This document shows, one piece after another, positions 31,167-46,596 of a stretch of DNA of 64,000 bases. The position numbers were made by a program, and so were the translations under genes. Below the pieces are notes generated by a model. That model was not told the origin of the DNA. It made no database searches and saw nothing but the letters and a program-made list of their open reading frames with translations. The stretch covers positions 19,985 through 83,984 of the forward strand of contig JAHDEI010000001.1 of assembly GCA_020628915.1 (NCBI GenBank), in the 5' to 3' direction. This DNA comes from Minisyncoccota bacterium (lineage in GTDB: Bacteria > Patescibacteriota > Minisyncoccia > Phycocordibacterales > GCA-2747955). Positions within the stretch are counted from its first letter, which is position 1. Every line of letters starts with the position of its first letter.

Positions 31167-31652
31167 TTATTTTCTGATCTTGAGACACCAAGCATCAAAG
31201 CCATTAATTGAACATCCTTGATCTTGAGGAATTTGGTCTGGGTCATCAAAGACTGTCGCGATAACTGCTGCTCCACCTCCATCAATATACAAATAAGGGT
31301 GATCATCAGGTGAAACCGGCAATGCTCCCATAAAACCATCTCGAGTTAATTCATATAAACATACCCTATCTCCGTATCTCACGCCGATTTCACACCAGTC
31401 TGGATTGTTCCTGTTAACTGGGTATTCTCCATATAAAAGTTCTGACAAAATAATTGCCTGCTCTATTTGTCTCATCTCAAGTTTCTTGGATGCATCTCTA
31501 CCGTCTTGCGCAGCTTTTGCAAATTGACCCGACAAAAACCATACAAAAAAGACAACGGTACAGAAACCCAGGACAAGCTGGCTTATCTTTCGAACATTTT
31601 GTTGATTTTTTTCAAACATGAAATTATCTAAACCATTTTTTGTGAAGAGCAT
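31167..31652 (-). CDS. Type IV pilin-like/pseudopilin-like protein
   Basis: N-terminal TM helix followed by ...DASKKLEMRQIEQAIILSELLYGEYP..., the pilin alpha-helix signature. Two Cys pairs sit near the C-terminus. Confidence 0.55.
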   Translation of the reverse strand: MLFTKNGLDNFMFEKNQQNVRKISQLVLGFCTVVFFVWFLSGQFAKAAQDGRDASKKLEMRQIEQAIILSELLYGEYPVNRNNPDWCEIGVRYGDRVCLYELTRDGFMGALPVSPDDHPYLYIDGGGAAVIATVFDDPDQIPQDQGCSINGFDAWCLKIRK

Positions 31653-32655
31653 CGTACTCACCGTTCTCTCGGACTCGGAGAAGAGCTTGATTAATGTCTT
31701 CAAGTAGTAGACTGCCACTCGGCAAAGCCACTCCGTAATTCTCTGGATTGAAGAGTTCGCCCATTACCTGAACTTTTCCTGCTCCCTTATTACTAGCGTA
31801 AAATTTAATGATAGGAGCATCATGCACAACAGCATCTAACTGACCGTTGGCAACTCCATCAAATAAGTTATCAATACTTGAATACGTAATTGTTGCAAGA
31901 TTTTGTTTGCGCAAGAATGCCTCGGATGTTGACCCTCCGATGACACCAACTTTTTTACCACGCAAGTCCTCAACTGTACTAATTTTTGCTTTTTGTTCAA
32001 GAATTACTAGCGACGATGTTAACTCAGCCGTTGCGGCAATGAACCCAAAGAATAATACCGCGATCCACAAAAGGAAGATGACTCGACCTGCTGGCTTGAT
32101 TGGCAGCTCTTCGCCAAATGAACCAAGAGTTGCGAGTTTCCAATAAATGGAAAATAGTTTCTTATTCTGTAATTGGCCTTTGTACACAAATGCATAAAGT
32201 AATCCTCCTAGAACCACAAACAACAAAAGAATCCACAACATAATCCACCAAAATTCGGCATTCGAAATCGCCTTGAACAAATTCTTTGCTTGGGATTGTG
32301 TTGAGCTCATAATAAGCATCCCGCCATTGTAGATTGGTGATGAAAAGTCCATCACCTCTTCCCGATCAGCAGTAATAGAAATATTTGCAATCGCGGCATC
32401 CGCTTCACCAATTCGAGGCGCCGCAAGGAGATTAACGAATTTTTCTTTAACAATGAATTCGTATTGCCAGTCATTATACTGAGCAATTTTTTCCCATAGC
32501 TCAATACTGAATCCATCTAATCCCTGCTCTGTTTGGATAACAAAAGGGTGCCTTTCAATTGTTGCGACCTTTAAAACTTGATCACCTTCAGCTTGTGCCG
32601 AAACCCCCGGCACAAAAATGAAGAAGCACGACAGAGCAAAAACTATTTTTTTCAT
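31624..32655 (-). CDS. GluR0-like ligand-gated ion channel (SBP_bac_3 domain split by a pore module)
   Basis: Signal peptide, then periplasmic binding lobe 1, a TM helix, a pore loop TLGSFGE (K-channel-filter-like), another TM helix, and binding lobe 2. Confidence 0.65.
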   Translation of the reverse strand: MKKIVFALSCFFIFVPGVSAQAEGDQVLKVATIERHPFVIQTEQGLDGFSIELWEKIAQYNDWQYEFIVKEKFVNLLAAPRIGEADAAIANISITADREEVMDFSSPIYNGGMLIMSSTQSQAKNLFKAISNAEFWWIMLWILLLFVVLGGLLYAFVYKGQLQNKKLFSIYWKLATLGSFGEELPIKPAGRVIFLLWIAVLFFGFIAATAELTSSLVILEQKAKISTVEDLRGKKVGVIGGSTSEAFLRKQNLATITYSSIDNLFDGVANGQLDAVVHDAPIIKFYASNKGAGKVQVMGELFNPENYGVALPSGSLLLEDINQALLRVRENGEYDALHKKWFR

Positions 32656-32702
32656 AAAATAATTATATCAATAAAAAAATGCCTCCGGCACTTTTTTGTT
32701 GA

Positions 32703-33731
32703 TTACGATGAAATAGTCATTCGCTTTTTTTTATAATGAGTTAAATTCTTTTTGTAATCGTTTCTTGTTGTCCATTTTTTAAATTTAGCAGGCAATTTAT
32801 CAAAGCCCTTACATTTGTAGCTACAATACCCACCTTTTTGTTCAATACACTCTTCACAACCAATAAAGAGAATGTGGCAAGCCTGGTTTTTACAATGGTA
32901 GTGTGTGTCTGCTTTGTGTTTTGTACAAACATGACATGTTGCAATAATTTCATCAGAGATTCGCTCTCCCATTCGTTCATCAAAAACAAAATTCTTACCT
33001 TTGAACTTATTTTCAAGCTTTTGCTCTTTTACCTGATGCGCATAATCAATGATTCCTCCCTTGAGATGTTTCACATTTTCAAAACCATTATGCTTCATCC
33101 AGGCTGAAGCTTTTTCACATCGAATCCCGCCAGTACAATATAATGCAATCGGTGCGTCCTTTTTATCAGAAAGCTCGTCTGTAATAACAGCAAGCTCTTC
33201 CCTAAACGTATCGACGTTTGGTGTAACAGCACCTTCAAAATGTCCAACTTCCGATTCATATGCATTTCTCATATCAACCACTATCGCTTCTGGATTAGTT
33301 ACATAGTCATTTATTTCTGCTGCTGTTAGGTATTCGCCAGTATTTGACGGGTCAAAAGAAGAATCATTAAGTCCGTCTGCAACAATCTTATCTTTGACGC
33401 GCACTATCAATTTAATGAATGATTTAGAATCTTCTTCTACAGCAATCTTATATGGAATATCGTTAAACTCTGGTATTGATTTAATGAACTGATCAAAAGC
33501 TTCCCAATTATGTTCTGGCACATTCATCTGAGCATTAATCCCCTCTTGCGCAATATAAATACGACCCTTACACCCAAGAGCAAAAAACTTTTCATGTAAT
33601 TTCTCTCTCATTTTCTGTGGGTTAGAAATCGCCACATATTTATAAAATGAAAGCGTAATACGAGAAAAATCTTCCGCTTCGAGCTCTGCAAGTAGCTGCT
33701 CTTTTGATTTAAGTCTGTCCTCTTTTTTCAT
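32703..33731 (-). CDS. trhO: tRNA uridine(34) hydroxylase TrhO (rhodanese-like, YceA family)
   Basis: Rhodanese active-site loop YCTGGIRCE and a C-terminal Cys-rich tail. Confidence 0.8.
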   Translation of the reverse strand: MKKEDRLKSKEQLLAELEAEDFSRITLSFYKYVAISNPQKMREKLHEKFFALGCKGRIYIAQEGINAQMNVPEHNWEAFDQFIKSIPEFNDIPYKIAVEEDSKSFIKLIVRVKDKIVADGLNDSSFDPSNTGEYLTAAEINDYVTNPEAIVVDMRNAYESEVGHFEGAVTPNVDTFREELAVITDELSDKKDAPIALYCTGGIRCEKASAWMKHNGFENVKHLKGGIIDYAHQVKEQKLENKFKGKNFVFDERMGERISDEIIATCHVCTKHKADTHYHCKNQACHILFIGCEECIEQKGGYCSYKCKGFDKLPAKFKKWTTRNDYKKNLTHYKKKRMTISS

Positions 33732-33752
33732 GCTGATTATTGTACTGATTTC

Positions 33753-34520
33753 CTATTTTTTTACAAAAACAAAATGATCTTTTTTAGAACGAAGCTTGGA
33801 ATACACGTAGCCATCTCTGTCATACTTTTTAATACCCTTTGGTTCAACAATCATGTTTTCACACATCCACCCTGCGAGAGACCCGCGCTGCTGTTTCGTA
33901 TAGACGGTCGCTTGAGTGAGCTTTCTTCCCTTCTTTTGATAAAAAGAGACATTTATCCAACGGCCCTTCCAGGCAGAAGTATTAATTACTTTTGTATATT
34001 CTTCTGAGGCAAGATTGATAATTACTTTTGATTCCTTTTTGCCTAATAATTCTTTTGATATCCGAGGACCCCAGTATTCGTAGAGGTTTTTATATGTGAC
34101 ACCCTTTAATGTAAAGCCAAATTTGGTTCCCATCTCTAGTCGATAAGGCTGCATTAAGTCCAGAGGACGAAGTATTCCATACAAGCCAGACAGTACCCGC
34201 AGATGCTGCTGCATATAAACGTATTGTTTACGGGCAAATGTTGTATCGAAGGTTTTATAAACAGCTCCTGTAAATGTATGGATGGCTTGTTTTGCATTTT
34301 TTTGAGTATGCCTTTTTTTCCATGTGTCTATTCGGGCGATATTTACTGCCGTTATAGAATCATTTGTTTTAAGAAGTTTTTGTAATTCGTCCCCTGTCAG
34401 CTCGCGGAGTTTCCTGATGAGATGCCACCGCTCGTCTTCAAATAATGGCTCTGTGAAGAGTTCTGTTGGAGCTAAGGACTCGACATCTTGAGTCTTTGAT
34501 GGAGACAGTAGTATCAACAT
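33753..34520 (-). CDS. yaaA: Peroxide stress protein YaaA (UPF0246)
   Basis: N-terminus MLILLSPSKTQ and an overall DUF328 pattern. Confidence 0.8.
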   Translation of the reverse strand: MLILLSPSKTQDVESLAPTELFTEPLFEDERWHLIRKLRELTGDELQKLLKTNDSITAVNIARIDTWKKRHTQKNAKQAIHTFTGAVYKTFDTTFARKQYVYMQQHLRVLSGLYGILRPLDLMQPYRLEMGTKFGFTLKGVTYKNLYEYWGPRISKELLGKKESKVIINLASEEYTKVINTSAWKGRWINVSFYQKKGRKLTQATVYTKQQRGSLAGWMCENMIVEPKGIKKYDRDGYVYSKLRSKKDHFVFVKK

Positions 34521-34615
34521 AAAAATATTCTACACAAGTCAAATAAAAACACCACTTGTGGCTGATACAATGATATGGTAACTCCGGTTATATATTATTT
34601 ACTAATTACTCTTTT

Positions 34616-35104
34616 ATGGGACTATTTTCATTTATTAAAGACGCTGGTTCTAACCTATTCGGAAACGATGCAGAAGCAGCAGAAGATCGAGCGGGAATGA
34701 TTCGAGGCAAACTAGCTGAATTTGGAATTGACGGTGTATCAGTTGCTGTTGATGACGCAGCAGTAACACTTGCTGGTGAAGTTGAGAACAAGATTGTTAA
34801 ACGAAAAGCAATCATTATTGCTGGAAACGTGAGTGGAGTTGCGTCAGTTGACGACCAAATGACATACGCAATGGCAGAGATGAATGAAGGAGAAACGTCT
34901 GAAGCTCCAACAGCTACCGAAGAAGACTTATCACAAGAATTTTATACTGTTCAGTCCGGAGACTCTCTTTCTGGCATCGCAAAAGAAGTATATGGAGATG
35001 CTATGAAGTACCCTGTTATTTTTGAAGCAAACAAACCTATGCTTTCTGACCCAGATAAAATTTATCCAGGCCAAATGCTTATTATTCCTTCACTAGAAGA
35101 ATAA
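34616..35104 (+). CDS. kbp: BON + LysM domain protein (Kbp/YgaU-like)
   Basis: MGLFSFIKDAGSNLFG... BON domain followed by a C-terminal LysM (YTVQSGDSLSGIAKEVYGD...IYPGQML). Confidence 0.8.
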   Translation: MGLFSFIKDAGSNLFGNDAEAAEDRAGMIRGKLAEFGIDGVSVAVDDAAVTLAGEVENKIVKRKAIIIAGNVSGVASVDDQMTYAMAEMNEGETSEAPTATEEDLSQEFYTVQSGDSLSGIAKEVYGDAMKYPVIFEANKPMLSDPDKIYPGQMLIIPSLEE

Positions 35105-35107
35105 ATT

Positions 35108-35135
35108 AAAAAACACCGCCCTGCGGTGTTTTTTA
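35108..35135. terminator. Bidirectional terminator hairpin; copy 1 of an identical 28-nt repeat
   Basis: aaaaaa-caccgc-cct-gcggtg-tttttt. The identical 28-mer recurs at 42365-42392. Confidence 0.75.
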
Positions 35136-35149
35136 ATTTTTGATATTTA

Positions 35150-38100
35150 TTAATATGACACTGATACTCCGTTTTCCAGGAGAATCTCTCCAATTGGACA
35201 CCCAACCATTTCATTCATAAATTTATTGGTTGTTTTATATTTATATCCAGTTCCTTTCGTCAATCCCCACGGTTTAAGCATGGTTGCCGAAAATGTTTCT
35301 TGGAAATCAATCATTGATCGATAAATTTCATCGTCCCAGATAGTATTAATTGGGCCGTTATAGAATCCTAATTCCGTCATGAATACTTTTGTTCTCTGGA
35401 CCTCTACTGAATTAGTATTCTGAGTTCTACCATTGAACTCTCTAAAGACCGGACATTCTAGAGACTTATTACAGTTAAACGAATTAATTTTCATTCGTGT
35501 TGTCAGGTACACATACCCAGTTGGCTGAGTTAGTCCCCACACCTCTAGTACTGAGCTCGAGTATTTTGACTGGAACCGTTTTACGGCTTCGAAGTCATCT
35601 TGATCATAGGTCCCATCAAGTGCTAAGGCTTCTCCTTCGTGGTTGTTTAAGAACGTAATTAACTTATTAACCTCCACCGGGTTATTGGAACGACCGAGAG
35701 CAATTGTTTCTGTTAAGTATGGCTCACAAACAGAAAGAGTTGATTGTGTTAGTGTGGGAATAATTGTTTCTGTATTCTCTACCGACTCGAGACTAGAATC
35801 TTCCGGATACTCACACCGACTTTGCTTGTGTCGTCCATAAGTTTTGTAATTAATCGCAGCTGGGTCTTTACAGACAAATCTCACAGAAGAACCTCCTCCT
35901 GACGAGATACGAGGAGAAACCACAACGTCATGAGATGTTGCAGGAGAACTATTCCCTGCCTCATCGGTTTGAATCACTGATACGGTTGTTGTCCCAACAT
36001 CAGTAAATTGTACATATGCAGCAAACGTACTTGAAGCAGTACAGGATTCTGTCTTTGGATCTGGAATAATTCCTGGTCCGTATATGGTTACAAGGCTGCC
36101 TGGCTCACATACACCTGTTATTGGTAGTGATGTATTATTTGTTGCTGTAGATGGAGAAATTCCCGTAGGTGCGGCAGGCCCAGTTAAGTCAACAAATACA
36201 TCAACTGAAGTGGTCCCCGAGGTATTCCCCGCCTCATCTGTTACAGAAACATCTAGCGTGGAAGTTGCACCATCCGCCGCAGCGTCCCACAAAACATCTG
36301 TGGTGTATGTTCCGCTCGCGGTACAAGCTACTTCAGTAGGGTCAGGAATAATATTTGGGTTTGAAATAGTCACCGTCCCATTCGATTCACATGTTCCACT
36401 TACCGTAGTTGGGTTGCTCACATTTGTTGATCCGTCTGGGTCTGAGATTGTTGGGTCTGATGGTGATGTCACGTCCCCCGTTGCAAATACCGTGTCAGGT
36501 CCAGACATATTCCCTGCATTATCCGTGGCTGTTGCAGTTATAAATAGTGGTCCTTCATCGCCTGGAGAAACCAAAGGAGGTGCTACGTCACAGCTCCATG
36601 TTCCGTCTGGCTGCACGGTTGTCTGGCACACTTGTCCCCCTGGTGAAATAAGAACGTCGATAGTATCACCTGGTGTTCCGACTCCCTCTACGGTTCCATC
36701 AGTTGTTCCTCCATTTGACGGGAATGTAATAGTTGGCGTGGTTGGTGGATCTAAGTCAACAGTTACCGGAACAGAAATAGTAGATGATTGATTCCCTGCT
36801 GCGTCTTCTTCATACACATCAATAGTGGTAGATCCAGATGTCCCCGACTCCCATAAAATATCTACTGAATACATTCCTGAGGCATCACAAACGACCTCAA
36901 TAGGGCTACCTTGAATATCTGAGTTTGCAATGACTACTGTTGATCCTGGTTCACATGCGCCAAAAACCTCCGTTGGATTTCCGATAGCTGAACCAGTTGT
37001 TGGAGAATCCACAGTGATTGCAGATGGTGCAGTGCCGTCATATGAAATCTGATTGTCTGTTGAAACAGAGGTTGTATTGAGATTTCCGGAAAGATCCTCG
37101 ACGACCCCGACAGGGATAGATAGAGTGACAGCATCTCCATCTGTAACCCCTGTCACTTCTACTTCATATGTTGTGTCATCATTTGGAGCAACTTCGGTTG
37201 GCCCGTTAACAGTAAGACCTGCTATTGATCCCGAAGGGAACGCTGACAAGACAAGGTCAGAGACATCAAATGTTGTTTCATTAATTGGTTCTGAGAATGT
37301 GATGGTCCATGTAAGAGAATTCACATTTGTGGGGTCAGTCTGGTCGACTTTTTGTTCAACTGCAACTCCCGGATCATCGAGATCAACACTAACTGCCACA
37401 TCAGTCATCGGAGAAACATTTCCTGCAGGATCCGTTAAAGTAACAGAAAGGGTTGTTGATCCACTCGTTCCGTCAGCCCAATCAACTGAGACATCTTGTG
37501 GTCCTGCGGCAGTACACGTATATGTTGTTGGATTAGGGATGATATTTGAATTTGAAATGGTAATGATTTCATCAGGTTCATTACAAACAATTTCAACGTT
37601 TGTTGGACTATTAACTGTTGCCCCTGATACCGGTTCGTTTACTGTTGGGGCAGCAGGCGGATTTGTATCTACAGTTACCACATTATCAATTGATAGAGAC
37701 CCAGCATTAAGGTTACCAGCTAGATCTTGTACTGTGCCAGCAGGCAATGATACCTGAATGTCTCCATCTCCTGTGCTTGTAATTGTTAGCTTGTATGTTG
37801 TTCCATCAAATGGAGAGATTTCTGATACAGACGAAACTGCAACTCCAGCAGCAGTTGACGCAGATAGATCAAAGTCTGTTACTTCGACAGTTGATCCATC
37901 AACTTCTTCTGAAAAAGTTACGATGAATTGCGCTGCTTGTAAATACGTAGGGTCAGATTGAACTCCTGATTGCTCTAGTTGCACTTGTGGTGCAACCAGA
38001 TCTGGGGAAATGCCAGATACTGTTGTCGTAACAGATGTATTCCCTGCCGCATCAATACAGGTAACTAGAAGATCATACGTGTTTCCATTTGCAACACCTG

Positions 38101-41100
38101 ACCAGAATACGTCTACCGCAAAATTTCCAGACGCATCAATTGAACTAATGGTTGGGTCAGGAATGATTCCTCCCCCTGGTGCAGTTGTAACTGAAACCGT
38201 TCCATTTTCTGCTCCGCTACATACCCCTGTTACTTCGGTTGGACTGTTCACTGAGTCACCAGCACTTGGAGTAATTACTGTAGGCCCGGATGGTGCTGTT
38301 GTGTCAACCTCATACTCTTCATCAGCGCCAGACGGAAGATTTGAATCAAGTAATAAACCAAAATTATCGTTGATATCATGTCCTGGATCTATAGCGATCC
38401 CCAAGAATCCATTTCCTGTTACATTATTTACAGTCACCAAATATGTTTGCGCATCTACTTCTGTAATACTCTGAACTGTACCAGTAACACTTCCAGTCAA
38501 GTCAACTACAAAATCATCAGTTGTTACGTCGCTTACATCTTCGTTGAATGTAACTTCAAAGCTAACCAATGTGTCACTTGTGGTTGCGGTTGTTGGATTT
38601 GATCTTGTGATGTCAACTACTTCTGGCTTTTGCTCAACAGCAAAAGTTACGTATGAATCATCAGCAATGTCAAGTGCAGCACTAAAGAATGATCCATCAT
38701 CAACCAACTGCGCTCCTGTGTCTGCTCCGTCAAATGTTGTATCAGTACTTTGAACAACCACGGGAATTCCTGCTGGAAAAATAATAGTGCTCGGGACAGC
38801 AAGATGTACCGTTCCGGCATCTAGTGTTTCGCTAAACTGCCAAGTTCTTGCTAGTGCATCCCCTGAAACACCATTGTATGTTCCAGTAAATGTTGTCGCA
38901 GCCCCATCATGTCCTGCCACCAAGTATGTTCCATTTGGTAATACCGTTCTTAGTGGATCATTATTTGCAGATGTAAAATCACTGTCGGTTGAGAGGTACA
39001 AAACCGAATCCGTTTCTTGTGAGTGCGCCACATTCTGCCTAAGCGCTGTAGCATCATCTCGTGCCAACCCAACAATTCCTTGATTGTACGCACTTGTTGA
39101 GGCTGCATATACTGTCGTTGATCCTGTTGAATCAAGATAGTCGTTTGGTAGAGTCAGACCATATTTAATACCGAGATAAGATTCAATACGCTGTAGATTA
39201 ATATCTGCGACCTCAGCGTCATAAACAATTGACTCTGGGATAAACCCGTTAAAGCTATTTGTGCCATCTTGTGCTCCCACGGCAAGTGTTGCGCCATCAA
39301 CATACGAATGAATCGTGTTATCTACTACACCAACGCCATCTACTCTAATAACATTATCTGGTGTTGTGGTTCCGTTTCTTATTACGACCAGAGCAGTCTC
39401 ACCTGCAGTCACTGATCCTCCGGTAATAGTATTTCCGTCATGATCTAGAGTTAGAGCAGCAGCGCCAGATGTAAGGTACATCCCATGCGTTGCTCCCGAC
39501 CCACCACCAATAATTGTCTGTTGGCCAGCATTTGAGTTTTGCTTTACAACCGCAACTTTTGTATATGGATTACTGTCTCCAAGCAAATCTGCTGTGAGTG
39601 TCTCCATGCCTGCAAAAGTAAAATCTGCGCTTGGTTGGAAGTTATTATCTTTTGAATATTCAACATATGTAGGCTGGGCCCCGGTGTTTCCAAATCCATC
39701 ATTGCCTCCTGCGCCGGTATCTACCCATCTACTAATTGCTCCACCATTTGTGACTGTATTTGGTCCATCATCTGCTTTATACCAGACTAACAAGCTCGCC
39801 TCTGTTGCTCCTGGAGCGCTTAGAGTCATAATGGTTGCAGTATCAGAAGTCAAACCAAAGAGAGTAAAATCATCAGCTGGTCCAACTGTTGGGTTCTGAA
39901 AGTCTCCAGCAGAATAATTTGACATATCCCAGGAAACAAAATCAACTTCTCCAGTCATATTTTCCCCAGCTGGGAGTACACGTAGCATATCTGTTGGACC
40001 AAGTAGTAGTGCATTAAACGGCGAAACTCCTCCTAGGTTGTTCCACGTTCCTCCTCCATCTAATGAGTACTGCCAGGTACCAACTCCAGTATCAACCGAG
40101 AAACCAGTAACTGCAATACCGCTATCATTGGCTGTGGGACTTGTGTTAGATGTACCAAGGATCTCTGCAACTGTGTTCCCAGCTGGATTCATATCATTTG
40201 GATCGACGTCGTCAAGTTCCATGATGTCAGTTACCGGGTTCACTACCACATTAATAGTAGCTGTATTGGTAGGGTCTGTAGCTCGTGCAACCCCAAGACC
40301 GTATGATGCTGACCCATCGTTGTTATATCCCGCCGGTGGATCAATCTCAATAGTATTATTAATAATTGCATTTGCTCCCAACTGCCATTCTCCTCCTCCA
40401 AGATTTAGTGCTGGTGGAGTAAAGCCAAATTCATCTGGTACATTAGAGAAAATAATTGGCTCAGGTCCAAACCACTGAATTGACGCTATAAACAAGTTTG
40501 CTCCGTATGAGTTTGCTCCGCTGACATTTTTTTGCTCAAGATCAATTCGTAAAGTATCTTGCCCATCAACATTAATTCGAGTCAGATTCGTAGAGCCTGG
40601 GAAACCATCAGTGAGTGCATTAAAGTCGGCTTTATTACTCACCACTCCTGACTCTGGAAGATCCGTATCTTCATTAAACAGCCTGGTACCCAAATCAAGA
40701 TCAGACCAAGAAACAGTATCTGGTGTTGACGCACGAGTGTTTACCCAGTTACCGCTTGATTTGTCTTCATATACTCCAGGAGAGACTTCTTTATCAATCT
40801 CGACAATAGCACTCATGGTTCCCCAGTTTTCATTATCTGCACTCCCTCCTGTGCGGTTAAATGCAACAATATTGATGAGACCAAGTGAGGCCCCTGATGG
40901 AATGTCCAAATCAAGACAATTTTCGGGTGCAGCTACTGGGTCACAAGTGTCACGCGAGTCCTCTGGACTATTTAAATCAATAGTATCAATACTTGACCCC
41001 AAGAACATGGCTGCTGAAGCCTGTTCTGCCCGTTCATAAAACTCAACTGCGTACTGAGAGATAAAGTTTGATCCTGCTGAGTCTGCAACATCAAATGTTC

Positions 41101-42211
41101 TTTCGATAAATAATTTACCTCCAGACACATAAACGTCAGGAGAATGCGATACATTTGCGTTTGCCACAATGTCTCCAGTTGTTGTAGCCTCTGATCCGAC
41201 AGCAAGCACACCTCCGGTAGTTGGTCCAAACACATCAAGGTCTTCAAATCCGTACGTTACGGTTTGAGCTGGCCCACGTCCTCGCAGGTTTGCAACAAGC
41301 CCAGTTACCTTACTGTAATCATCCCGTGATGGCTGGAACTCCATAATCATTCGAGACAAAATTTTTGACTCAACCCGGAAAGAACCTGATGGGCGCCCTC
41401 CAGATTCAGTGATAACAATATAGTCAGTTCCATCAGGAATATCTACAGAGTCAATAGTTACTCCTGTTCCTGATGCAGCTCCCCCATCAAGCACAATAGA
41501 CTCAATTCCTCGCAACAGTGTTGAGTTGTCAACGCTTGAGAGGTACTCAACTAAGTACGCTGTGTTAACTAGTGTCTGAGTTTGAGTAATAGAGAGCGTT
41601 GAGCCTGAGACATCTACTGTTAATGAGTCTCCTGCTGTATTTGCACCAACCGGTGAGTCCGAGTTTGAAGCTGCACCCAATGCAACTCCTGCCCATGCAT
41701 ACGCTCGATGCGAAGTAGTAAAGAATGGGAATGATAATGATCCACTGTATGTTTCATACGTGGTAGATTTTGGATCAAGGTCAACGGTAGTGTTGATTAA
41801 GATAAAGTCATCGTCATCGTCATCATTTGTTGCGTCAGAATTCGTACCGTAAGCTGTAATACGAATTGCTGTGGTATCTGCAGGAATAGTAAAAGTCTCT
41901 GCAACAGTACACTCGTTTTCAGCGGTGTTGTCTGTGGCTTCACAATAACCAATGTCTGAAGACAGATAATCCGGCAACAAACCTCCGTCAGTGTAGGCCG
42001 CGCCCAACAGATCTTTAAGGTCAAATGACGCACCATTGTCTTCGTTCATCTCAATATCAAAAGGGACGATATAATCTGTACTTGGGGCTGCGTGCGCATA
42101 TGACGGCAGTAGGTCAGCTAATCCATAAAATCCATATGGAAAAAGTGCAAATAGTAAAATAAATAAGGAAATTACCACTTGTCTTAATAAAGGTATTCTA
42201 AAAGCGCTCAT
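35150..42211 (-). CDS. Giant secreted surface protein (2353 aa) with Ig-like repeats, a LamG-like domain and two C-terminal PG_binding_1 domains
   Basis: Signal peptide, then about 8 repeats of the D-x-T-x-P-x-x-P-T-[IV]...C...C Ig-like unit and a LamG/ConA-like block (LLVWYKADDG...GGNDG...). The C-terminus carries two peptidoglycan-binding repeats (...LALDGTYDQDDFEAVKRFQ..., ...GPINTIWDDEIYRSMIDFQ...). Confidence 0.85.
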   Translation of the reverse strand: MSAFRIPLLRQVVISLFILLFALFPYGFYGLADLLPSYAHAAPSTDYIVPFDIEMNEDNGASFDLKDLLGAAYTDGGLLPDYLSSDIGYCEATDNTAENECTVAETFTIPADTTAIRITAYGTNSDATNDDDDDDFILINTTVDLDPKSTTYETYSGSLSFPFFTTSHRAYAWAGVALGAASNSDSPVGANTAGDSLTVDVSGSTLSITQTQTLVNTAYLVEYLSSVDNSTLLRGIESIVLDGGAASGTGVTIDSVDIPDGTDYIVITESGGRPSGSFRVESKILSRMIMEFQPSRDDYSKVTGLVANLRGRGPAQTVTYGFEDLDVFGPTTGGVLAVGSEATTTGDIVANANVSHSPDVYVSGGKLFIERTFDVADSAGSNFISQYAVEFYERAEQASAAMFLGSSIDTIDLNSPEDSRDTCDPVAAPENCLDLDIPSGASLGLINIVAFNRTGGSADNENWGTMSAIVEIDKEVSPGVYEDKSSGNWVNTRASTPDTVSWSDLDLGTRLFNEDTDLPESGVVSNKADFNALTDGFPGSTNLTRINVDGQDTLRIDLEQKNVSGANSYGANLFIASIQWFGPEPIIFSNVPDEFGFTPPALNLGGGEWQLGANAIINNTIEIDPPAGYNNDGSASYGLGVARATDPTNTATINVVVNPVTDIMELDDVDPNDMNPAGNTVAEILGTSNTSPTANDSGIAVTGFSVDTGVGTWQYSLDGGGTWNNLGGVSPFNALLLGPTDMLRVLPAGENMTGEVDFVSWDMSNYSAGDFQNPTVGPADDFTLFGLTSDTATIMTLSAPGATEASLLVWYKADDGPNTVTNGGAISRWVDTGAGGNDGFGNTGAQPTYVEYSKDNNFQPSADFTFAGMETLTADLLGDSNPYTKVAVVKQNSNAGQQTIIGGGSGATHGMYLTSGAAALTLDHDGNTITGGSVTAGETALVVIRNGTTTPDNVIRVDGVGVVDNTIHSYVDGATLAVGAQDGTNSFNGFIPESIVYDAEVADINLQRIESYLGIKYGLTLPNDYLDSTGSTTVYAASTSAYNQGIVGLARDDATALRQNVAHSQETDSVLYLSTDSDFTSANNDPLRTVLPNGTYLVAGHDGAATTFTGTYNGVSGDALARTWQFSETLDAGTVHLAVPSTIIFPAGIPVVVQSTDTTFDGADTGAQLVDDGSFFSAALDIADDSYVTFAVEQKPEVVDITRSNPTTATTSDTLVSFEVTFNEDVSDVTTDDFVVDLTGSVTGTVQSITEVDAQTYLVTVNNVTGNGFLGIAIDPGHDINDNFGLLLDSNLPSGADEEYEVDTTAPSGPTVITPSAGDSVNSPTEVTGVCSGAENGTVSVTTAPGGGIIPDPTISSIDASGNFAVDVFWSGVANGNTYDLLVTCIDAAGNTSVTTTVSGISPDLVAPQVQLEQSGVQSDPTYLQAAQFIVTFSEEVDGSTVEVTDFDLSASTAAGVAVSSVSEISPFDGTTYKLTITSTGDGDIQVSLPAGTVQDLAGNLNAGSLSIDNVVTVDTNPPAAPTVNEPVSGATVNSPTNVEIVCNEPDEIITISNSNIIPNPTTYTCTAAGPQDVSVDWADGTSGSTTLSVTLTDPAGNVSPMTDVAVSVDLDDPGVAVEQKVDQTDPTNVNSLTWTITFSEPINETTFDVSDLVLSAFPSGSIAGLTVNGPTEVAPNDDTTYEVEVTGVTDGDAVTLSIPVGVVEDLSGNLNTTSVSTDNQISYDGTAPSAITVDSPTTGSAIGNPTEVFGACEPGSTVVIANSDIQGSPIEVVCDASGMYSVDILWESGTSGSTTIDVYEEDAAGNQSSTISVPVTVDLDPPTTPTITFPSNGGTTDGTVEGVGTPGDTIDVLISPGGQVCQTTVQPDGTWSCDVAPPLVSPGDEGPLFITATATDNAGNMSGPDTVFATGDVTSPSDPTISDPDGSTNVSNPTTVSGTCESNGTVTISNPNIIPDPTEVACTASGTYTTDVLWDAAADGATSTLDVSVTDEAGNTSGTTSVDVFVDLTGPAAPTGISPSTATNNTSLPITGVCEPGSLVTIYGPGIIPDPKTESCTASSTFAAYVQFTDVGTTTVSVIQTDEAGNSSPATSHDVVVSPRISSGGGSSVRFVCKDPAAINYKTYGRHKQSRCEYPEDSSLESVENTETIIPTLTQSTLSVCEPYLTETIALGRSNNPVEVNKLITFLNNHEGEALALDGTYDQDDFEAVKRFQSKYSSSVLEVWGLTQPTGYVYLTTRMKINSFNCNKSLECPVFREFNGRTQNTNSVEVQRTKVFMTELGFYNGPINTIWDDEIYRSMIDFQETFSATMLKPWGLTKGTGYKYKTTNKFMNEMVGCPIGEILLENGVSVSY

Positions 42212-42364
42212 AAATAAAACTACAATGATTTAATAAAACCTGCAGAGTTCCTCAAACCACAAAGAACGTGCATACTACAAGATATAATTATTATGGAATG
42301 TTTATTTAAAATTTTCCAGCAAGTTATCCATAGATAGACAAAAAATAATAAATGTTAATTTAAT

Positions 42365-42392
42365 AAAAAACACCGCCCTGCGGTGTTTTTTA
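42365..42392. terminator. Terminator hairpin; copy 2 of the identical 28-nt repeat
   Basis: Identical to 35108-35135. It lies just past the stop of the small gene at 42390-42590 and upstream of the giant gene's promoter region. Confidence 0.7.
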
Positions 42393-42590
42393 TTGCCCAA
42401 ACTCTGCCTCCAGTCGCTTGTCGGTCGCTGAGCCGTATAAATCAGTCACCTCTCTTGCTGTCTCTATTTGTTGAACCGCATCTGTATTTACATACGAATC
42501 AACAGGGTCTTCTCCTGCCATGTAATACCAGGCGCCATACAAAACGCCAATCACTATTAATGATGCAATAATTGCCTTCATATATATCAT
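42390..42590 (-). CDS. Hypothetical small membrane-anchored protein
   Basis: A 66-aa protein with an N-terminal TM helix. Confidence 0.4.
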   Translation of the reverse strand: MIYMKAIIASLIVIGVLYGAWYYMAGEDPVDSYVNTDAVQQIETAREVTDLYGSATDKRLEAEFGQ

Positions 42591-42594
42591 CCTA

Positions 42595-42867
42595 TCACAC
42601 CCCGCGCTTTATTAGATTTAGTTTTGCCCGCCTGCCAAGTTTCTTTATTTTTCGCTCCCTTCTGTGTGCATCTCCATAACTATCATACTCTTCTGAGTAA
42701 ACCAAAGTCACTGGCCTCCTGCTTTCGGTATATTTAGCACCCTTGTTTGGCCCCAACCCGTTATGTTCCCCTATTCTGCGGGGGATATCTTTTGTCAACC
42801 CTGTATACAGTGTCTTATCAGCGCATCGCGCGATATATACGTATGTGACTTCTTCTGGTGTGCTCAC
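42595..42867 (-). CDS. GIY-YIG nuclease family protein (UPF0213-like)
   Basis: VTYVYIARCADKTLYTGLTKDIPRRIGEHN matches the GIY-YIG motif. Confidence 0.75.
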   Translation of the reverse strand: MSTPEEVTYVYIARCADKTLYTGLTKDIPRRIGEHNGLGPNKGAKYTESRRPVTLVYSEEYDSYGDAHRRERKIKKLGRRAKLNLIKRGV

Positions 42868-42871
42868 AAAC

Positions 42872-44152
42872 TTATCTATTTATAAATTTTCTCGTCGAAG
42901 GACCAAAGTACCCTGTCCCACTAGACAATCCAACAGGCACAAGGATATCTGATCGATAAAAATTCTGTAAACGTACTAAAGCTTGTTTTGTCCGTGTTCC
43001 AAAATATGTAGTCTCATTCCCGACAGAGCCTGCCCCCTCTTCTGAAACAGTGAATCCATATGCATTAAGAAGTTTTTGTAGCTCTCGTACATCTTCACCT
43101 CTTGATCCAATAGTCAGGCTGCGAGTAAAATTAAATTTTGGCCCAGTTGTATCAAGTATTCCTCTCACTCCAGGTAAGATTCCGGTCGTTGGATCCAGGT
43201 CTACCAAATCGAATATTTTTCGAGAATTTGGCCTTACCAGTTTGAACGAATCTCTACTCGTTAGATACACATCGTTGTCACTATTCTTTGGTTCAAAAAT
43301 TACCTCTTGTCGGACAATCCATTTCCCTGCTGCATCATATGATACAAGAGAAGGTGTTTGTTTTAAGAAGTCTTGATCAACGATGTCTGCGTATATTGTG
43401 TCCACCCCGGGGATATACCAAGCCCTGTCTCCCAACATATACAAATCAAACGTCATGGTAGGCATTGCACTCTTGAGAGTCCTCATGGGTAATTGTGGTT
43501 TGTCTGTCGCAAAAGAGATCTCAATTGGTGAGAGTTCGCCAAAGAAAATCGGTGGAGCGATCCGGAGATCAACATTCTCTTCTGCTGCTTTTAGAAAGAT
43601 AGGAATTTGTGACATATCTACCTTGAGTGCAATAAAGTGGAACCCAGGCTTTGAAACATAATATTCCATTTTTTCTTCATCAGCGTCTCCGAATGCAAAA
43701 TCATTCTCTTCAAGCCAGTCAATCAAGTCTCCGGAATCAGTTGCTGTCAAAACAGTAACATCAAAATCCCCCACTTGTTTTTCTTCAACCACCGTTACTG
43801 ACTGATTTTTTGTTGTGGCAACAAATGCATCTGCACTTTCAGCTGCTAATGGCACAGGCTGCCAAGGGTTTGTTGCATTATTGAGCTCTTCGAAAATTCT
43901 TTCTGGCGCTTGGTTAATTTCTGGCTTTGATGGAGTTGGAAAAACAATTGCAAACTCTTTGGCGTCTCCACGAAATTCAGGTCGCAAGATATTAGTTTGG
44001 ATTCCATCATTATATGTAACCAAAATTTCCGTTGCATTTAATGGTTCAAATAACCTCTCTTGCGGAACGATTCCCCACGTGCAAAACCCATATGCAACAG
44101 AAAACGATCCAAAATATATTAGTACTCCCAAAAGTCCTACTTTTTTAAACAT
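42872..44152 (-). CDS. DUF2330-type secreted protein with a C-terminal PG_binding_1 domain
   Basis: Signal/TM segment, then a large extracytoplasmic domain. The C-terminal ...GEDVRELQKLLNAYGF...TKQALVRLQNFY... is a peptidoglycan-binding repeat. Confidence 0.55.
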   Translation of the reverse strand: MFKKVGLLGVLIYFGSFSVAYGFCTWGIVPQERLFEPLNATEILVTYNDGIQTNILRPEFRGDAKEFAIVFPTPSKPEINQAPERIFEELNNATNPWQPVPLAAESADAFVATTKNQSVTVVEEKQVGDFDVTVLTATDSGDLIDWLEENDFAFGDADEEKMEYYVSKPGFHFIALKVDMSQIPIFLKAAEENVDLRIAPPIFFGELSPIEISFATDKPQLPMRTLKSAMPTMTFDLYMLGDRAWYIPGVDTIYADIVDQDFLKQTPSLVSYDAAGKWIVRQEVIFEPKNSDNDVYLTSRDSFKLVRPNSRKIFDLVDLDPTTGILPGVRGILDTTGPKFNFTRSLTIGSRGEDVRELQKLLNAYGFTVSEEGAGSVGNETTYFGTRTKQALVRLQNFYRSDILVPVGLSSGTGYFGPSTRKFINR

Positions 44153-44223
44153 AAGCCAAGAATTAATGATTAATGTTTTAATTATACACATAAAAAAGCG
44201 ACGGCATTCCGTCGCTTAGATGG

Positions 44224-44751
44224 CTAGAGCAAACCACACTCCTTAGCTGTATCAACAAAAAAATGTCGTTGAATAATTGCATCATCAAGAGCATGGTGTG
44301 GTAACACGTATATCAGAGGATTCATTTTCCCAAATCTGGACCAAGAACAAAACCCCTTATGACCAAACGGTAAACGCACGCCATACTTTGAAGCACACAG
44401 TTGGATAAACATCCAATCAAACCCCACGTTATACGCCACAAACAGCGGATCGTATTGAGAATCAATTACTTCCCTGCTCCATTCAGCAAACATGGTTATC
44501 GCCTGCTTTGGATCAACGCCCTCATCTTTGAGGCGTTCGAAGCCAAGCTTATTAACGCTCATTGCGTTTGGGCAATAATGATCTATATCAGGCTTAAGCT
44601 CGACATAAAATTTCTCTTGTACGTCTGAAATAAGACATGCTCCGATAGACAGCAAAGAGTACGTTAATATTTCAGGTCCGGCCATTTCACCATCGGTAGA
44701 AATGCCGCGTTCAAAAATATTCTGAGGTAGTGGTTTTTGTTTTGTGGTCAC
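44224..44751 (-). CDS. DEDDh-type 3'-5' exonuclease domain protein
   Basis: ...ISTDGEMAGP... (Exo I-like) and ...LPHHALDDAII... (Exo III with His). Confidence 0.6.
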   Translation of the reverse strand: MTTKQKPLPQNIFERGISTDGEMAGPEILTYSLLSIGACLISDVQEKFYVELKPDIDHYCPNAMSVNKLGFERLKDEGVDPKQAITMFAEWSREVIDSQYDPLFVAYNVGFDWMFIQLCASKYGVRLPFGHKGFCSWSRFGKMNPLIYVLPHHALDDAIIQRHFFVDTAKECGLL

Positions 44752-44893
44752 GTGACCCTCCTTTCAAAGAACAACAAATTAAAGTAGTTTCTTTAAGACA
44801 AACTTAAAGTGATTACTCCAATATACAATGAATTCCTGTTTCTTGCAATATACTGTATACTTGCAACTAGTTGAAATTTAAAAGGAGTCATCG

Positions 44894-45730
44894 ATGACTA
44901 AAATTAATCTTGGTGATAAGTTCTACTCAGTTGACGACAAAGGCTTGGTCACCGTCGGCATGGTTGGAGAAATATCATTAAAGCGTAATGTGAGCAAAAC
45001 TTCGCTTTTATTTTCAAATCCATACGAAACCGACCACGATATTACCTACAAAATATATGGCAAGCATGGACCCAATCACTTTACCGAACCAACGGAGGCA
45101 ATTGCCGAGGCGACCAAGATATTAAGAAAAATCTTACAAAGAGGTCTGGACTCAAAAAAATTAGAAGAAGATCTTCGGTTGCGCCTTGAGCGCTATGAGA
45201 ATTCTCAGGGCGCTGTTGTTTCTGAACTGCTGGAGGTAAAAACGGTTATTAAAAAAAGTATTCCCTTGGTTGTCTCAAGAAATAATATTACTCGCTATGA
45301 TATGTCTACTGTTCCGACAGAATATTTCTATCCTGGGACTCGCGTTTGGGGAATTGTAACTCCTCGTACACATTTCATGACAACGCCAAGAATTTTCCCT
45401 GATACCTTGTATTTTATATTAGATACAGTAATCGAGAGTGCTTCACTAACACAACAAGGCACAAAAGTATCATACCGGACCTTCGGTAGCCGAAGCGTCA
45501 AGCCACGTGATAATCTACTTTGTTTGGACTTAGAAACTGCGCAGAAAAGGATGCAAGAAATTTTCCGTGAACAAACTCCCGGAGAAATTCGAGATGTTTC
45601 TAAAATCCCGATTCTCACAAAGGAGGACGTGGCTGAAGCTGAACGAAAACGCACGGATGCCATCATAAAAAGTAGTACTGCGCTACTTGAAAAAGAGCGC
45701 AGGCTCGGACTCGAGCCTGATCACTCTTAA
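44894..45730 (+). CDS. Hypothetical protein
   Basis: AAAAGGAG RBS and a downstream terminator (aaacccagcatctcgctgggtttt). Confidence 0.5.
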   Translation: MTKINLGDKFYSVDDKGLVTVGMVGEISLKRNVSKTSLLFSNPYETDHDITYKIYGKHGPNHFTEPTEAIAEATKILRKILQRGLDSKKLEEDLRLRLERYENSQGAVVSELLEVKTVIKKSIPLVVSRNNITRYDMSTVPTEYFYPGTRVWGIVTPRTHFMTTPRIFPDTLYFILDTVIESASLTQQGTKVSYRTFGSRSVKPRDNLLCLDLETAQKRMQEIFREQTPGEIRDVSKIPILTKEDVAEAERKRTDAIIKSSTALLEKERRLGLEPDHS

Positions 45731-45762
45731 AAATAAACCCAGCATCTCGCTGGGTTTTATCT

Positions 45763-46596
45763 TTATTCAAAATCTTCTTTTGTTTTTGTGAGCGGTTTGT
45801 GCTCTCCAAAGAGTTCAGCCAAGTTCCCTCCCGCTTCCTCCAAATCAAATTGATCTTCGGTCACTTTGCTATCAAGTTTTTCAAAAATACCTGCCGCAAG
45901 TAACCCTGTTGGAACCGAATATTCAAACGACTCATCAAATGGAATTTCTGGAATATAACGATTGAAGTCGAACAAATTTTGCCAAATGTTTGTCTTTTTT
46001 AAATCAAAGCCTAACTCGGTGAGCTCGAGCAATGCTGCTTCTGAATCATAGACACCTGCGATGAGCACTTGTTTGTTTTCTAATTGTGCAAGGTACGTAC
46101 GTAGTTGTTCCTGACCAGAAAGAGAAAATAGGTCGAGCTCTGACATAGTTTGCAAGAACTGTGTCTCCTGCCCAGTAACGTAAAATAAATAGGAAGTGTC
46201 GCCGTTTGCAAAAATACACAAACGCCTGGTGTTTATATCAAACGGTACAAAAATGTACCTAAAAAGGTCATGAGTTGGTTTGAATACAACATCAGTAAAA
46301 CCTACTACAGAAAGAGTTTCTTGTTTTCGTTGTTCCGCGGCACGAATAACAACGCGGGCTTTTGGATGAACAAATCTTCGTAGCTCTTTCAGTACGGCGA
46401 TGAACTCAACTCTTTTTTTGATTTCTCCGTTCTTTACCACATCAAACGGGATGGTGATGTGCCCAAAAGCAGAGAGACTGAGAACACCCTTCTTATTTTC
46501 TACCTCAACGTACCGAATAGTTCTATCTGAAAAAGATATACCAGCCGTATACCGAGGCGAGCTTTGTATTTTTTCTTGTATATGTGGCAATAACAT
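45763..46596 (-). CDS. PilM-like actin-fold protein (short)
   Basis: An N-terminal ...AGISFSDRTIRYVEVENKKGVLSLSAFGHITIPFDVVKNGEI... pattern that resembles type IV pilus PilM. Confidence 0.45.
   Translation of the reverse strand: MLLPHIQEKIQSSPRYTAGISFSDRTIRYVEVENKKGVLSLSAFGHITIPFDVVKNGEIKKRVEFIAVLKELRRFVHPKARVVIRAAEQRKQETLSVVGFTDVVFKPTHDLFRYIFVPFDINTRRLCIFANGDTSYLFYVTGQETQFLQTMSELDLFSLSGQEQLRTYLAQLENKQVLIAGVYDSEAALLELTELGFDLKKTNIWQNLFDFNRYIPEIPFDESFEYSVPTGLLAAGIFEKLDSKVTEDQFDLEEAGGNLAELFGEHKPLTKTKEDFE

What the first reader, a model, noticed from the sequence alone, without database searches (positions are those of the whole stretch)
35108..42392. A 7.1 kb single-gene surface-protein locus bracketed by two identical 28-nt terminator hairpins
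The exact 28-mer aaaaaacaccgccctgcggtgtttttta occurs at 35108-35135 and at 42365-42392. The 2353-aa protein gene lies between them, with Ig-like repeats, a LamG-like domain and two PG-binding domains. Identical flanking repeats can mark a recombination or integration module, or could drive excision or duplication of the cassette. They may also simply be a reused terminator. The protein is a candidate adhesin of the kind episymbiotic bacteria use for host attachment.
Basis: seen in the sequence. Interest (0 to 1): 0.5.

Follow-up and report, generated by a model that had tools for sequence, protein, structure and literature searches.

The report
Twin terminators flanking giant surface-protein gene
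Two identical copies of an ordinary transcription-stop hairpin sit on either side of one very large cell-surface protein gene in an ultra-small (Patescibacteria) bacterium; they most likely just wall off that gene's transcription, and nothing found here shows the gene to be a mobile cassette.

Summary
The exact 28-mer (29 nt with one more shared base) occurs only at 35108-35135 and 42365-42392, in direct orientation. It brackets a single 2353-aa ORF, which lies on the minus strand (35150-42211). Each copy is a perfect A-run/GC-stem/T-run hairpin (about -20 kcal/mol on either strand), the same design as about 20 other gene-end hairpins in the window. Copy 1 lies between the convergent giant gene and a BON-LysM gene. 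Copy 2 ends the upstream DUF2330/GIY-YIG/66-aa operon, ahead of the giant gene's promoter region. Independent origin is very unlikely, so one hairpin is a copy of the other. Similarity stops at the hairpin. No recombinase or transposase lies within about 10 kb. The gene's codon usage is native. The closest available relative (DUF2330 protein 66% identical) also has a large PG-anchored surface-protein gene plus a similar hairpin directly upstream of yaaA. Best reading: two functional bidirectional intrinsic terminators insulating a monocistronic adhesin-like gene, with the upstream copy created at a lineage-specific rearrangement junction. The cassette/integration reading is not supported but not excluded, because the rest of the genome and strain variants could not be reached. 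The protein description largely holds. Low novelty.

The parts
35108..35135 (.). Hairpin copy 1 (T1). The full self-complementary stem runs 35103-35139 (17 bp, loop CCT). It is a bidirectional intrinsic terminator between the stop of the BON-LysM gene (+, 3 nt upstream) and the stop of the giant gene (-, 14 nt upstream).
   Evidence: (-19.8 and -20.3 kcal/mol on the two strands, z about -7).
42365..42392 (.). Hairpin copy 2 (T2). The full stem runs 42362-42394 (15 bp, loop CCT). It terminates the minus-strand DUF2330/GIY-YIG/66-aa operon. Its last 3 nt are the TAA stop of the 66-aa ORF. It lies 153 nt upstream of the giant gene's ATG.
   Evidence: (-19.3 and -19.6 kcal/mol).
35150..42211 (-). 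Giant ORF of 2353 aa. It is Thr/Ser/Gly/Val/Asp-rich, has a hydrophobic N-terminal signal-like segment, and is a singleton at 90% identity among 5.8 billion protein clusters.
40226..42073 (-). N-terminal region (aa 47-662) with no Pfam family. It is 30% identical over 627 aa to an internal region of a 2218-aa cadherin/Big_9-repeat protein (P0007) encoded next to type I secretion-like genes in another phylum.
38612..39814 (-). aa ~800-1200: a concanavalin/LamG-like beta-sandwich plus a following module (PF26628 in precomputed annotation). The pair recurs as repeats in unrelated giant proteins P0002-P0004 and P0015.
   Evidence: Laminin_G_3 in 4 of 13 homologous modules; none in the window's own copy.
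35882..38629 (-). aa ~1195-2110: array of Ig-like domains (Pfam Big_6 and Big_13), several with a conserved Cys pair.
35153..35722 (-). aa ~2164-2353: C-terminal double PG_binding_1-like module, the presumed non-covalent cell-wall anchor.
   Evidence: 22.0 bits against a cutoff of 23; pLDDT >90; best matches are PG-binding domains of CtpB, SleB, SleC and a phage endolysin.
42212..42364 (-). AT-rich 153-nt promoter/leader region of the giant gene, with one weak sigma-70-like match (TGGAAA-17-CATAAT).
   Evidence: No Rfam family reaches threshold. Promoter function is inferred, not shown.
34616..35104 (+). BON + LysM protein (162 aa, Kbp/YgaU-like), convergent with the giant gene and sharing T1. 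It is absent at this position in the nearest relative, L109.
42390..44191 (-). Upstream co-oriented operon ended by T2: DUF2330+PG_binding_1 (42872-44191), a 90-aa stand-alone GIY-YIG protein (42595-42867), and a 66-aa ORF with a hydrophobic N-terminus (42390-42590).

Best explanation
T1 and T2 are two working copies of one bidirectional intrinsic (rho-independent) terminator. They make the giant surface-protein gene its own transcription unit. T2 stops read-through from the co-oriented DUF2330/GIY-YIG/66-aa operon before the giant gene's promoter. T1 stops both the 7-kb giant transcript and the convergent BON-LysM transcript. The identity of the two copies comes from a short copy event. T1 is probably the ancestral 3' terminator of the giant gene. 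T2 is probably a copy laid down at a lineage-specific rearrangement junction, where the RuvX-to-DUF2330 block came to lie upstream of the giant gene. The gene is a resident chromosomal gene, not a recently acquired cassette. It encodes a secreted protein anchored to peptidoglycan by its C-terminus, with an Ig-like stalk and lectin-like/unknown distal domains, i.e. an adhesin-type architecture. What is shown: the sequence identity, the hairpin energetics, the placement at gene ends, the native codon usage, the synteny and the domain homologies. What is inferred: terminator activity, the direction of copying, the link to the rearrangement, and adhesin function.
For: Hairpin design and position: 15-17 bp perfect stems flanked by A6 and T6 runs, about -20 kcal/mol on both strands, picked up by the terminator scan. 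T1 lies 3 nt and 14 nt after two convergent stop codons; T2 overlaps a stop codon. About 20 other gene-end hairpins in the window have the same A-run/GC-stem/T-run design with different stems (D2, 31, 62), and the relatives L109 and L111 use the same design. Copy rather than convergence: see the chance estimate. The repeat is confined to the hairpin. Resident gene: GC3 is 0.296 against a window mean of 0.358 +/- 0.041, in the same direction as the best-adapted genes. Synonymous-codon log-likelihood is +0.04 against -0.002 +/- 0.043, uniform along the gene. The higher total GC comes from second codon positions, i.e. amino-acid composition. Synteny: in L109 (DUF2330 protein 66% identical) a large protein with a homologous C-terminal anchor (E 4e-17) is followed by a hairpin and then yaaA-rhodanese-SBP, as in the window. 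The RuvX-to-DUF2330 block lies on the other side there, so the junction at T2 is lineage-specific. Of the 21 window hairpins, T2 and T1 are the best matches to that L109 hairpin (scores 16 and 14 against 11 or less). No mobility genes were found in the ORFs scanned between 24.8 and 51.4 kb. No Rfam family fits. Protein architecture.
Against: No transcript data exist, so termination is inferred from sequence alone. A mechanism that copies only about 29 nt with no flank is not identified. Perfect identity over 29 nt implies a recent copy or ongoing homogenisation, while the rearrangement cannot be dated. The L109 giant-like gene is cut by the contig end and matches only in its C-terminal ~200 aa, a module that also occurs in many small Paceibacteria proteins. 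Orthology of the two giant genes is therefore only positional. The hairpin similarity is modest. Only 64 kb of the genome was readable, so other copies may exist.
Confidence: 0.62

Rival explanations
1. Dispersed terminator-like repeat family. The hairpin is a small copy-and-paste element, analogous to pneumococcal SPRITE or to REP elements, that has landed at several gene ends and been co-opted as a terminator. The two copies around the giant gene are then just two members that happen to be neighbours.
For: The copied unit is only the hairpin, with no flanks, as expected for a tiny element. A second near-identical hairpin pair exists in unrelated contexts 14.4 kb apart: 12096 and 26536 share the 9-nt stem AAAGCGACC and have similar loops. 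SPRITE is a precedent for terminator-like interspersed repeats enriched at 3' ends and between convergent genes (PMC3049150).
Against: There are only 2 copies in 64 kb even with 3 mismatches allowed. No RAYT/IS200-type or other transposase gene was found in the scanned part of the window. No target-site duplication or terminal motif is visible beyond the A/T runs. The 25-nt core has zero hits in JGI metagenome contigs and in IMG/VR.
Confidence: 0.17
2. Recombination cassette. The direct repeats are crossover sites that let the 7.26-kb adhesin unit be excised, lost, amplified or exchanged. The sites would be either 29-bp substrates for homologous recombination or core sites (11-7-11) for a tyrosine recombinase encoded elsewhere. 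This resembles a dif module or an oversized integron cassette.
For: The repeats are exact, direct and bracket exactly one transcription unit. The T2 side is a lineage-specific junction. The giant protein has no close relative anywhere, as expected for fast-turnover surface genes. 29 bp is near the minimum length for RecA-dependent exchange (general knowledge, not tested here).
Against: No recombinase lies nearby. Codon usage is fully native. A giant-like gene plus hairpin upstream of yaaA is conserved in L109. By inspection the hairpin lacks the defining features of attC or dif sites (see membership test). The same hairpin design with other stems ends about 20 ordinary genes.
Confidence: 0.1
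3. Assembly artefact or chance convergence. Either the MAG contig was mis-joined at a short repeat, or the two terminators reached the same sequence independently.
For: The source is an NCBI contig of 116 kb, and its relatives in the collections are MAGs. The same 10-nt arm recurs independently in 108 unrelated genomes.
Against: A 29-nt repeat is shorter than the final k-mers of the usual metagenome assemblers (general knowledge). The T1-side junction is corroborated by synteny with L109. Codon usage is homogeneous across both junctions. Only 1 of the 108 independent occurrences shares the loop, which makes convergence on stem, loop and run lengths within 64 kb negligible.
Confidence: 0.04

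Closest known systems
Bidirectional intrinsic (rho-independent) terminators
   Same: A GC-rich perfect stem with a short loop, an A-run on one side and a T-run on the other, so that either strand's transcript ends in a hairpin plus U-tract. They sit immediately after stop codons, including between convergent genes.
   Different: Two neighbouring terminators are identical to the base over 29 nt, which ordinary independent terminators are not. Activity is untested in this organism.
[quoted passage not shown]
   Same: A terminator-shaped repeat copied without flanking sequence, found close to 3' ends of genes and between convergent genes.
   Different: SPRITE has about 30 copies per genome, an 18-bp duplex and a longer T-rich tract. 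Here only 2 copies are seen in 64 kb, the unit is about 29-37 nt, and no family can be demonstrated.
Integron gene cassettes (attC) and Acinetobacter dif modules (pdif sites)
   Same: Short, partly palindromic sites bracket discrete gene units. The dif site is also 28 bp long.
   Different: There is no integron integrase or Xer gene nearby and no attC core sites or extrahelical bases. There is no resemblance to dif consensus arms. The sites here are direct, perfect palindromes with a 3-nt centre. The unit is a 7-kb native chromosomal gene.
Giant repeat-rich bacterial adhesins (Bap/LapA/SiiE-type Ig-repeat proteins) and PG_binding_1-anchored wall proteins of monoderm bacteria
   Same: A signal sequence, a long Ig-like stalk (Big_6/Big_13), lectin-like distal modules and a wall-binding anchor. 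The N-terminal region is homologous to part of a type I secretion-linked giant adhesin-like protein.
   Different: The domain combination is unique, with no full-length homologue (best hit 34% identity over 8% of the length). The anchor is a double PG_binding_1-like module at the C-terminus, not LPXTG or a type I secretion signal. Binding partner and expression are unknown.

Membership tests
Intrinsic (rho-independent) terminator | Stable GC-containing hairpin immediately followed by a U/T-tract on the transcribed strand | tested here: met
   -19.3 to -20.3 kcal/mol, z -5.9 to -7.7, on all four strand/copy combinations. A T6 run follows the stem on either strand.
Intrinsic (rho-independent) terminator | Located just downstream of a stop codon, at the end of a transcription unit | tested here: met
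   T1 lies 3 nt after the BON-LysM stop and 14 nt after the giant gene's stop. T2 overlaps the stop of the 66-aa ORF.
Intrinsic (rho-independent) terminator | Transcripts actually end there | not testable with these tools
   No transcriptome is available for this uncultured organism.
Dispersed small palindromic repeat family (SPRITE / REP-like) | Many copies spread over the genome | tested here: inconclusive
   Two copies in 64 kb with up to 3 mismatches allowed. The rest of the genome is unreachable. A second hairpin pair (12096/26536) hints at the habit.
Dispersed small palindromic repeat family (SPRITE / REP-like) | Cognate mobilising enzyme (e.g. a RAYT for REP) or target-site duplications | tested here: not met
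   No transposase-like Pfam hit in the scanned ORFs. No repeat beyond the hairpin.
Integron gene cassette (attC) | attC site of at least ~55 nt with R''/L''-L'/R' core sites (GTTRRRY) and extrahelical bases, plus an intI integrase and attI | tested here: not met
   The hairpin is 29-37 nt and perfectly paired, with no GTTRRRY core (read from the sequence). No integrase lies within 24.8-51.4 kb.
dif module / Xer-dependent element | 28-bp site with distinct XerC and XerD arms around a 6-bp spacer, matching the dif consensus; modules flanked by inversely oriented sites | tested here: not met
   By inspection the arms are a perfect palindrome around a 3-nt centre and show no similarity to dif arms recalled from memory (E. 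coli GGTGCGCATAA-TGTATA-TTATGTTAAAT). The two copies are in direct orientation. Xer binding itself is not testable here.
Prophage / integrative island with att repeats | Integrase gene, foreign composition, insertion absent from relatives | tested here: not met
   No integrase. Native codon usage. A positional counterpart is present in L109. The 25-nt core is absent from IMG/VR.
PG_binding_1 wall-anchored surface protein | PG_binding_1 three-helix domain(s) | tested here: met
   The Pfam hit is just below cutoff (22.0 against 23 bits). The AF2 model of the double module has pLDDT >90, and the best Foldseek hits are the PG-binding domains of CtpB, SleB (TM 0.80 on the target), SleC and the AP3 endolysin. 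Homologues carry precomputed PF01471.
LamG / concanavalin A-like lectin domain | Match to Laminin_G-type profiles or the jelly-roll fold | tested here: inconclusive
   The window's own segment has no Pfam hit. Four of 13 homologous modules hit Laminin_G_3, best E 8.5e-7. The AF2 model is all-beta with mean pLDDT 68, and the fold hits are weak (PilC lectin module, trans-sialidase lectin domain).
Ig-like repeat adhesin (Big_6/Big_13) | Multiple bacterial Ig-like domains above the Pfam gathering score | tested here: met
   Big_6 at 66.6 bits (4 stretches) and Big_13 at 50.7 bits in the full protein. The values are 87.8 and 66.7 bits in the segment aa 1700-2100.

The most novel reading that the evidence does not exclude
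In this reduced Patescibacteria genome, terminator hairpins may behave as tiny copy-and-paste or recombination-prone units. The identical direct pair would then make the single giant adhesin gene a deletable, amplifiable or exchangeable unit: a minimal recombinase-free 'cassette' that allows rapid turnover of the host-attachment protein. The second same-stem hairpin pair in the window (12096/26536) would be another trace of the same process.
Probability: 0.1. Interest if true: 0.5.

Novelty: new member of a known kind. Interest (0 to 1): 0.2.

Why it matters
Taken at face value this is routine gene-end punctuation around a lineage-specific giant surface protein. It adds one more uncharacterised, PG-anchored, Ig-repeat adhesin candidate to the Patescibacteria catalogue, where attachment factors other than type IV pili are poorly known (PMC12206443, PMC10633639). 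The identical terminator pair would matter only if population data showed that the unit is gained, lost or swapped at these hairpins. That would give a very simple mechanism for surface-protein turnover in organisms that carry few mobile elements.

Tried and rejected
1. Genome-wide count of the 28-mer. The source genome is not among the GTDB species representatives. A scan with the relaxed core gave 108 loci in unrelated genomes, and none shares any other sequence with the 35-42 kb region. The 25-nt core has 0 hits in JGI metagenome contigs and in IMG/VR.

2. Fetching the source contig. Exact-protein look-ups failed for the giant protein, BON-LysM, DUF2330 and P0001, although P0001 is recorded on a 116,122-bp NCBI contig.

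3. Strains lacking the locus. No protein above 34% identity to the giant exists in the 5.8-billion-cluster collection. The nearest genome reachable through a neighbour gene is only 66% identical at protein level, so empty-site or filled-site comparison is impossible. A more distant relative (L111, 52%) has no shared synteny.

4. Orthologues through the C-terminal anchor. This search found only small double-PG-binding proteins and M23 peptidases. The best (72% identity) is a 203-aa protein next to an IS30-like gene, not a giant gene.

5. Flank homology beyond the hairpin: none.

6. Tandem DNA repeats inside the gene that could drive slippage: none.

7. Known RNA families at the hairpins or in the leader: only subthreshold hits to terminator-bearing sRNA models.

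8. PDB sequence search of three protein segments: nothing informative.

9. Compositional evidence for foreign origin: rejected.

10. The stand-alone 90-aa GIY-YIG protein next to T2 was considered as a possible homing nuclease. It is a bare catalytic domain with no DNA-binding extension, and no link to the repeat is evident. This was not pursued.
Full report
OBSERVATION. The exact 28-mer AAAAAACACCGCCCTGCGGTGTTTTTTA occurs at 35108-35135 and 42365-42392 on the + strand. With up to three mismatches allowed it occurs nowhere else in the 64 kb, and shuffles give none. The shared stretch is 29 nt, because one more T is shared on the 5' side. After that the flanks differ, although each copy continues its own self-complementary A/T extension: 35103-35139 forms 17 bp and 42362-42394 forms 15 bp. 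The 3-nt loop (CCT) is the only asymmetric part and has the same orientation in both copies, so they are direct repeats 7257 bp apart. Local alignment of 400 nt on each side, in both relative orientations, scores no better than shuffled sequence. A single long ORF lies between the copies, 35150-42211, 2353 aa, on the minus strand.

NOT CHANCE. A relaxed palindromic core with a free loop (AAAAACACCGCNNNGCGGTGTTTTT) occurs 108 times among one genome each of 185,579 species. It nearly always occurs once per genome, in phyla from Proteobacteria to Firmicutes. None of these loci shares anything else with the 35-42 kb region. The stem is therefore a sequence that terminators reach independently. Only one of the 108 (a Hydrogenophaga) has the same loop. 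A second independent origin of identical stem, loop and run lengths within 64 kb is negligible (my estimate <1e-4). One hairpin is a copy of the other.

WHAT THE HAIRPINS ARE. Both copies fold as perfect hairpins of -19.3 to -20.3 kcal/mol on either strand (z -5.9 to -7.7). Each has an A6 run before the stem and a T6 run after it, so each strand's transcript ends in a stem plus U-tract. The consensus scan calls T1 a terminator on both strands. T1 lies 3 nt after the stop of a convergent BON-LysM gene (34616-35104, +) and 14 nt after the stop of the giant gene. T2 overlaps the TAA of a 66-aa ORF. That ORF ends a co-oriented operon of DUF2330+PG_binding_1 (42872-44191), a 90-aa GIY-YIG protein (42595-42867) and the 66-aa ORF itself (42390-42590). 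T2 sits 153 nt upstream of the giant gene's ATG. My own scan finds 31 perfect hairpins in the window. About 20 of them have this A-run/GC-stem/T-run design at gene ends, all with different stems (also D2). Relatives' loci use the same design. No Rfam family reaches threshold at either copy or in the leader.

ORGANISM AND CONTEXT. The window is ordinary chromosome: DnaE, ThrRS, RNase Y, class I LysRS, MreB, MnmA and four tRNAs. Homologues of the DUF2330 protein that carry source names come from Patescibacteria/Parcubacteria MAGs. Pfam scans of the ORFs between 24.8 and 51.4 kb show housekeeping or unknown proteins and no integrase, transposase or recombinase.

IS THE GIANT GENE A FOREIGN CASSETTE? 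Its total GC (0.438) is slightly above that of its neighbours. The excess lies in second codon positions (0.484), i.e. in its Thr/Ser/Gly/Ala/Pro-rich composition. GC3 (0.296) is below the window mean (0.358 +/- 0.041), as in the best-adapted genes. Its synonymous-codon log-likelihood under the window's usage is above average (+0.04 against -0.002 +/- 0.043), evenly along its length. That is the signature of a resident, possibly well-expressed gene.

The only reasonably close relative reachable is contig L109, whose DUF2330 protein is 66% identical. It has two collinear blocks. Block A is yaaA, rhodanese, SBP and a 151-aa protein. Block B is RuvX, tRNA_bind, two unknown proteins and DUF2330. 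Identities to the window range from 40 to 73%. In L109 the order is [large protein, cut by the contig end] - hairpin - A - B. In the window, read on the minus strand, the order is B - GIY-YIG - 66 aa - T2 - giant - T1 - (BON-LysM) - A. The L109 large protein ends with a region homologous to the giant's C-terminus (29% identity over 203 aa, E 4e-17). Its terminator (TAAAAACCACCCGGAAGGGTGGTTTTT) is matched best, among the 21 window hairpins compared, by T2 and T1.

A large wall-anchored protein gene plus this kind of hairpin directly upstream of yaaA therefore looks ancestral. The junction that carries T2 is lineage-specific. This favours T1 as the original and T2 as a copy made when block B came to lie upstream. 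The direction and mechanism of copying are inference.

WHAT COULD NOT BE DONE. The source contig (116,122 bp, NCBI) is known only through its proteins. Exact look-ups failed. The core is absent from JGI metagenome contigs and IMG/VR. The giant protein has no relative above 34% identity over 8% of its length.

A HINT OF A WIDER HABIT. A second pair of hairpins shares an identical 9-nt stem and similar loops: 12096-12119 AAAGCGACC[GAATCT]GGTCGCTTT and 26536-26558 AAAGCGACC[TAATC]GGTCGCTTT. Their gene contexts are unrelated and they lie 14.4 kb apart. This weakly suggests that terminator hairpins are occasionally copied in this genome. It argues for 'reused terminator' rather than for something specific to the giant gene. 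The nearest described analogue is the pneumococcal SPRITE element, a terminator-like interspersed repeat enriched at 3' ends and between convergent genes (PMC3049150).

THE PROTEIN. The N-terminus (MSAFRIPLLRQVVISLFILLFALFPYGFYGL...AHA/AP) reads as a signal or anchor segment (by eye). aa 47-662 has no Pfam family. It is 30% identical over 627 aa to an internal part of a 2218-aa cadherin/Big_9-repeat protein that is encoded next to OEP/HlyD-like type I secretion genes in another phylum. aa ~800-1200 is a two-part module repeated in giant proteins of Bacteroidota and others. Four of 13 such modules hit Laminin_G_3, but the window's own copy does not. Its AF2 model is all-beta with moderate confidence and only weak lectin-domain fold hits. 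'LamG-like' is therefore plausible but not proven.

aa ~1195-2110 is an array of Big_6/Big_13 Ig-like domains with paired cysteines. aa ~2164-2353 is a double three-helix module conserved in many small Paceibacteria proteins and M23 peptidases. It is modelled at pLDDT >90, and its best fold matches are the PG-binding domains of CtpB, SleB, SleC and a phage endolysin. The Pfam PG_binding_1 score is 22.0 against a cutoff of 23. There are no tandem DNA repeats in the gene. The architecture (secreted, wall-anchored at the C-terminus, Ig stalk, lectin-like and unknown distal domains) is that of an adhesin. Function and target are untested.

VERDICT. The simplest reading that fits everything is a duplicated bidirectional intrinsic terminator insulating a monocistronic, resident giant surface-protein gene (confidence about 0.6). 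The rivals are a dispersed terminator-like repeat family (about 0.17), a recombination cassette (about 0.1), and artefact or convergence (about 0.04). The defining features of integron attC sites, dif modules and prophage att sites were checked and not met. Novelty is low: a new member of known kinds. Interest is 0.2. It would rise to about 0.5 only if population data showed gain, loss or exchange of the unit at the hairpins.

Noticed in passing
window 12096-12119 and 26536-26558: A second pair of near-identical terminator-like hairpins: same 9-nt stem AAAGCGACC/GGTCGCTTT, loops GAATCT and TAATC. They lie in unrelated gene contexts, after a 168-aa ORF ahead of thrS and between an ABC-2 permease gene and a convergent ORF. 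Terminator hairpins may be copied now and then in this genome.
   Followed up: partly
window 49741-49770 and 49850-49922: A truncated copy of the 5' part of tRNA-Arg(GCG) lies 109 nt upstream of the intact tRNA-Arg gene. 23 nt are identical, and the copy is not called by ARAGORN or Rfam. It may be a relic of a duplication or of an old integration at the tRNA. No integrase is nearby.
   Followed up: partly
window 42595-42867 (-): A stand-alone 90-aa GIY-YIG domain protein lies between the DUF2330-PG_binding gene and the 66-aa ORF, right next to hairpin T2. It is absent at this position in the nearest relative, L109. It has no DNA-binding extension, and its role is unknown.
   Followed up: no
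L109 1-12264 versus window 31167-48269: The same two gene blocks (yaaA-rhodanese-SBP-151aa and RuvX-tRNA_bind-...-DUF2330) occur in a different relative order in the closest available relative. In the window they are bounded by tRNA-Leu (31040-31122) and tRNA-Ser (48480-48567). L109 has YjdM and LtrA genes that the window lacks.
   Followed up: partly
L113 63-1715: An IS30-like transposase gene (HTH_38 + rve) lies directly upstream of a 203-aa double PG-binding protein that is 72% identical to the giant protein's C-terminal anchor. The anchor module therefore also exists as a small stand-alone protein next to a mobile element.
   Followed up: no
L114 4364-5724: A bAvd plus reverse-transcriptase (RVT_1) gene pair, typical of diversity-generating retroelements, lies a few kb from another small double PG-binding protein in a related metagenomic contig.
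   Followed up: no
window 35150-42211 (-): The giant gene's synonymous codon usage fits the window's preferred codons better than the average gene does, and its GC3 is low, like that of the BON-LysM and tRNA_bind genes. This hints at high expression, as expected for a major surface or S-layer-like component.
   Followed up: partly
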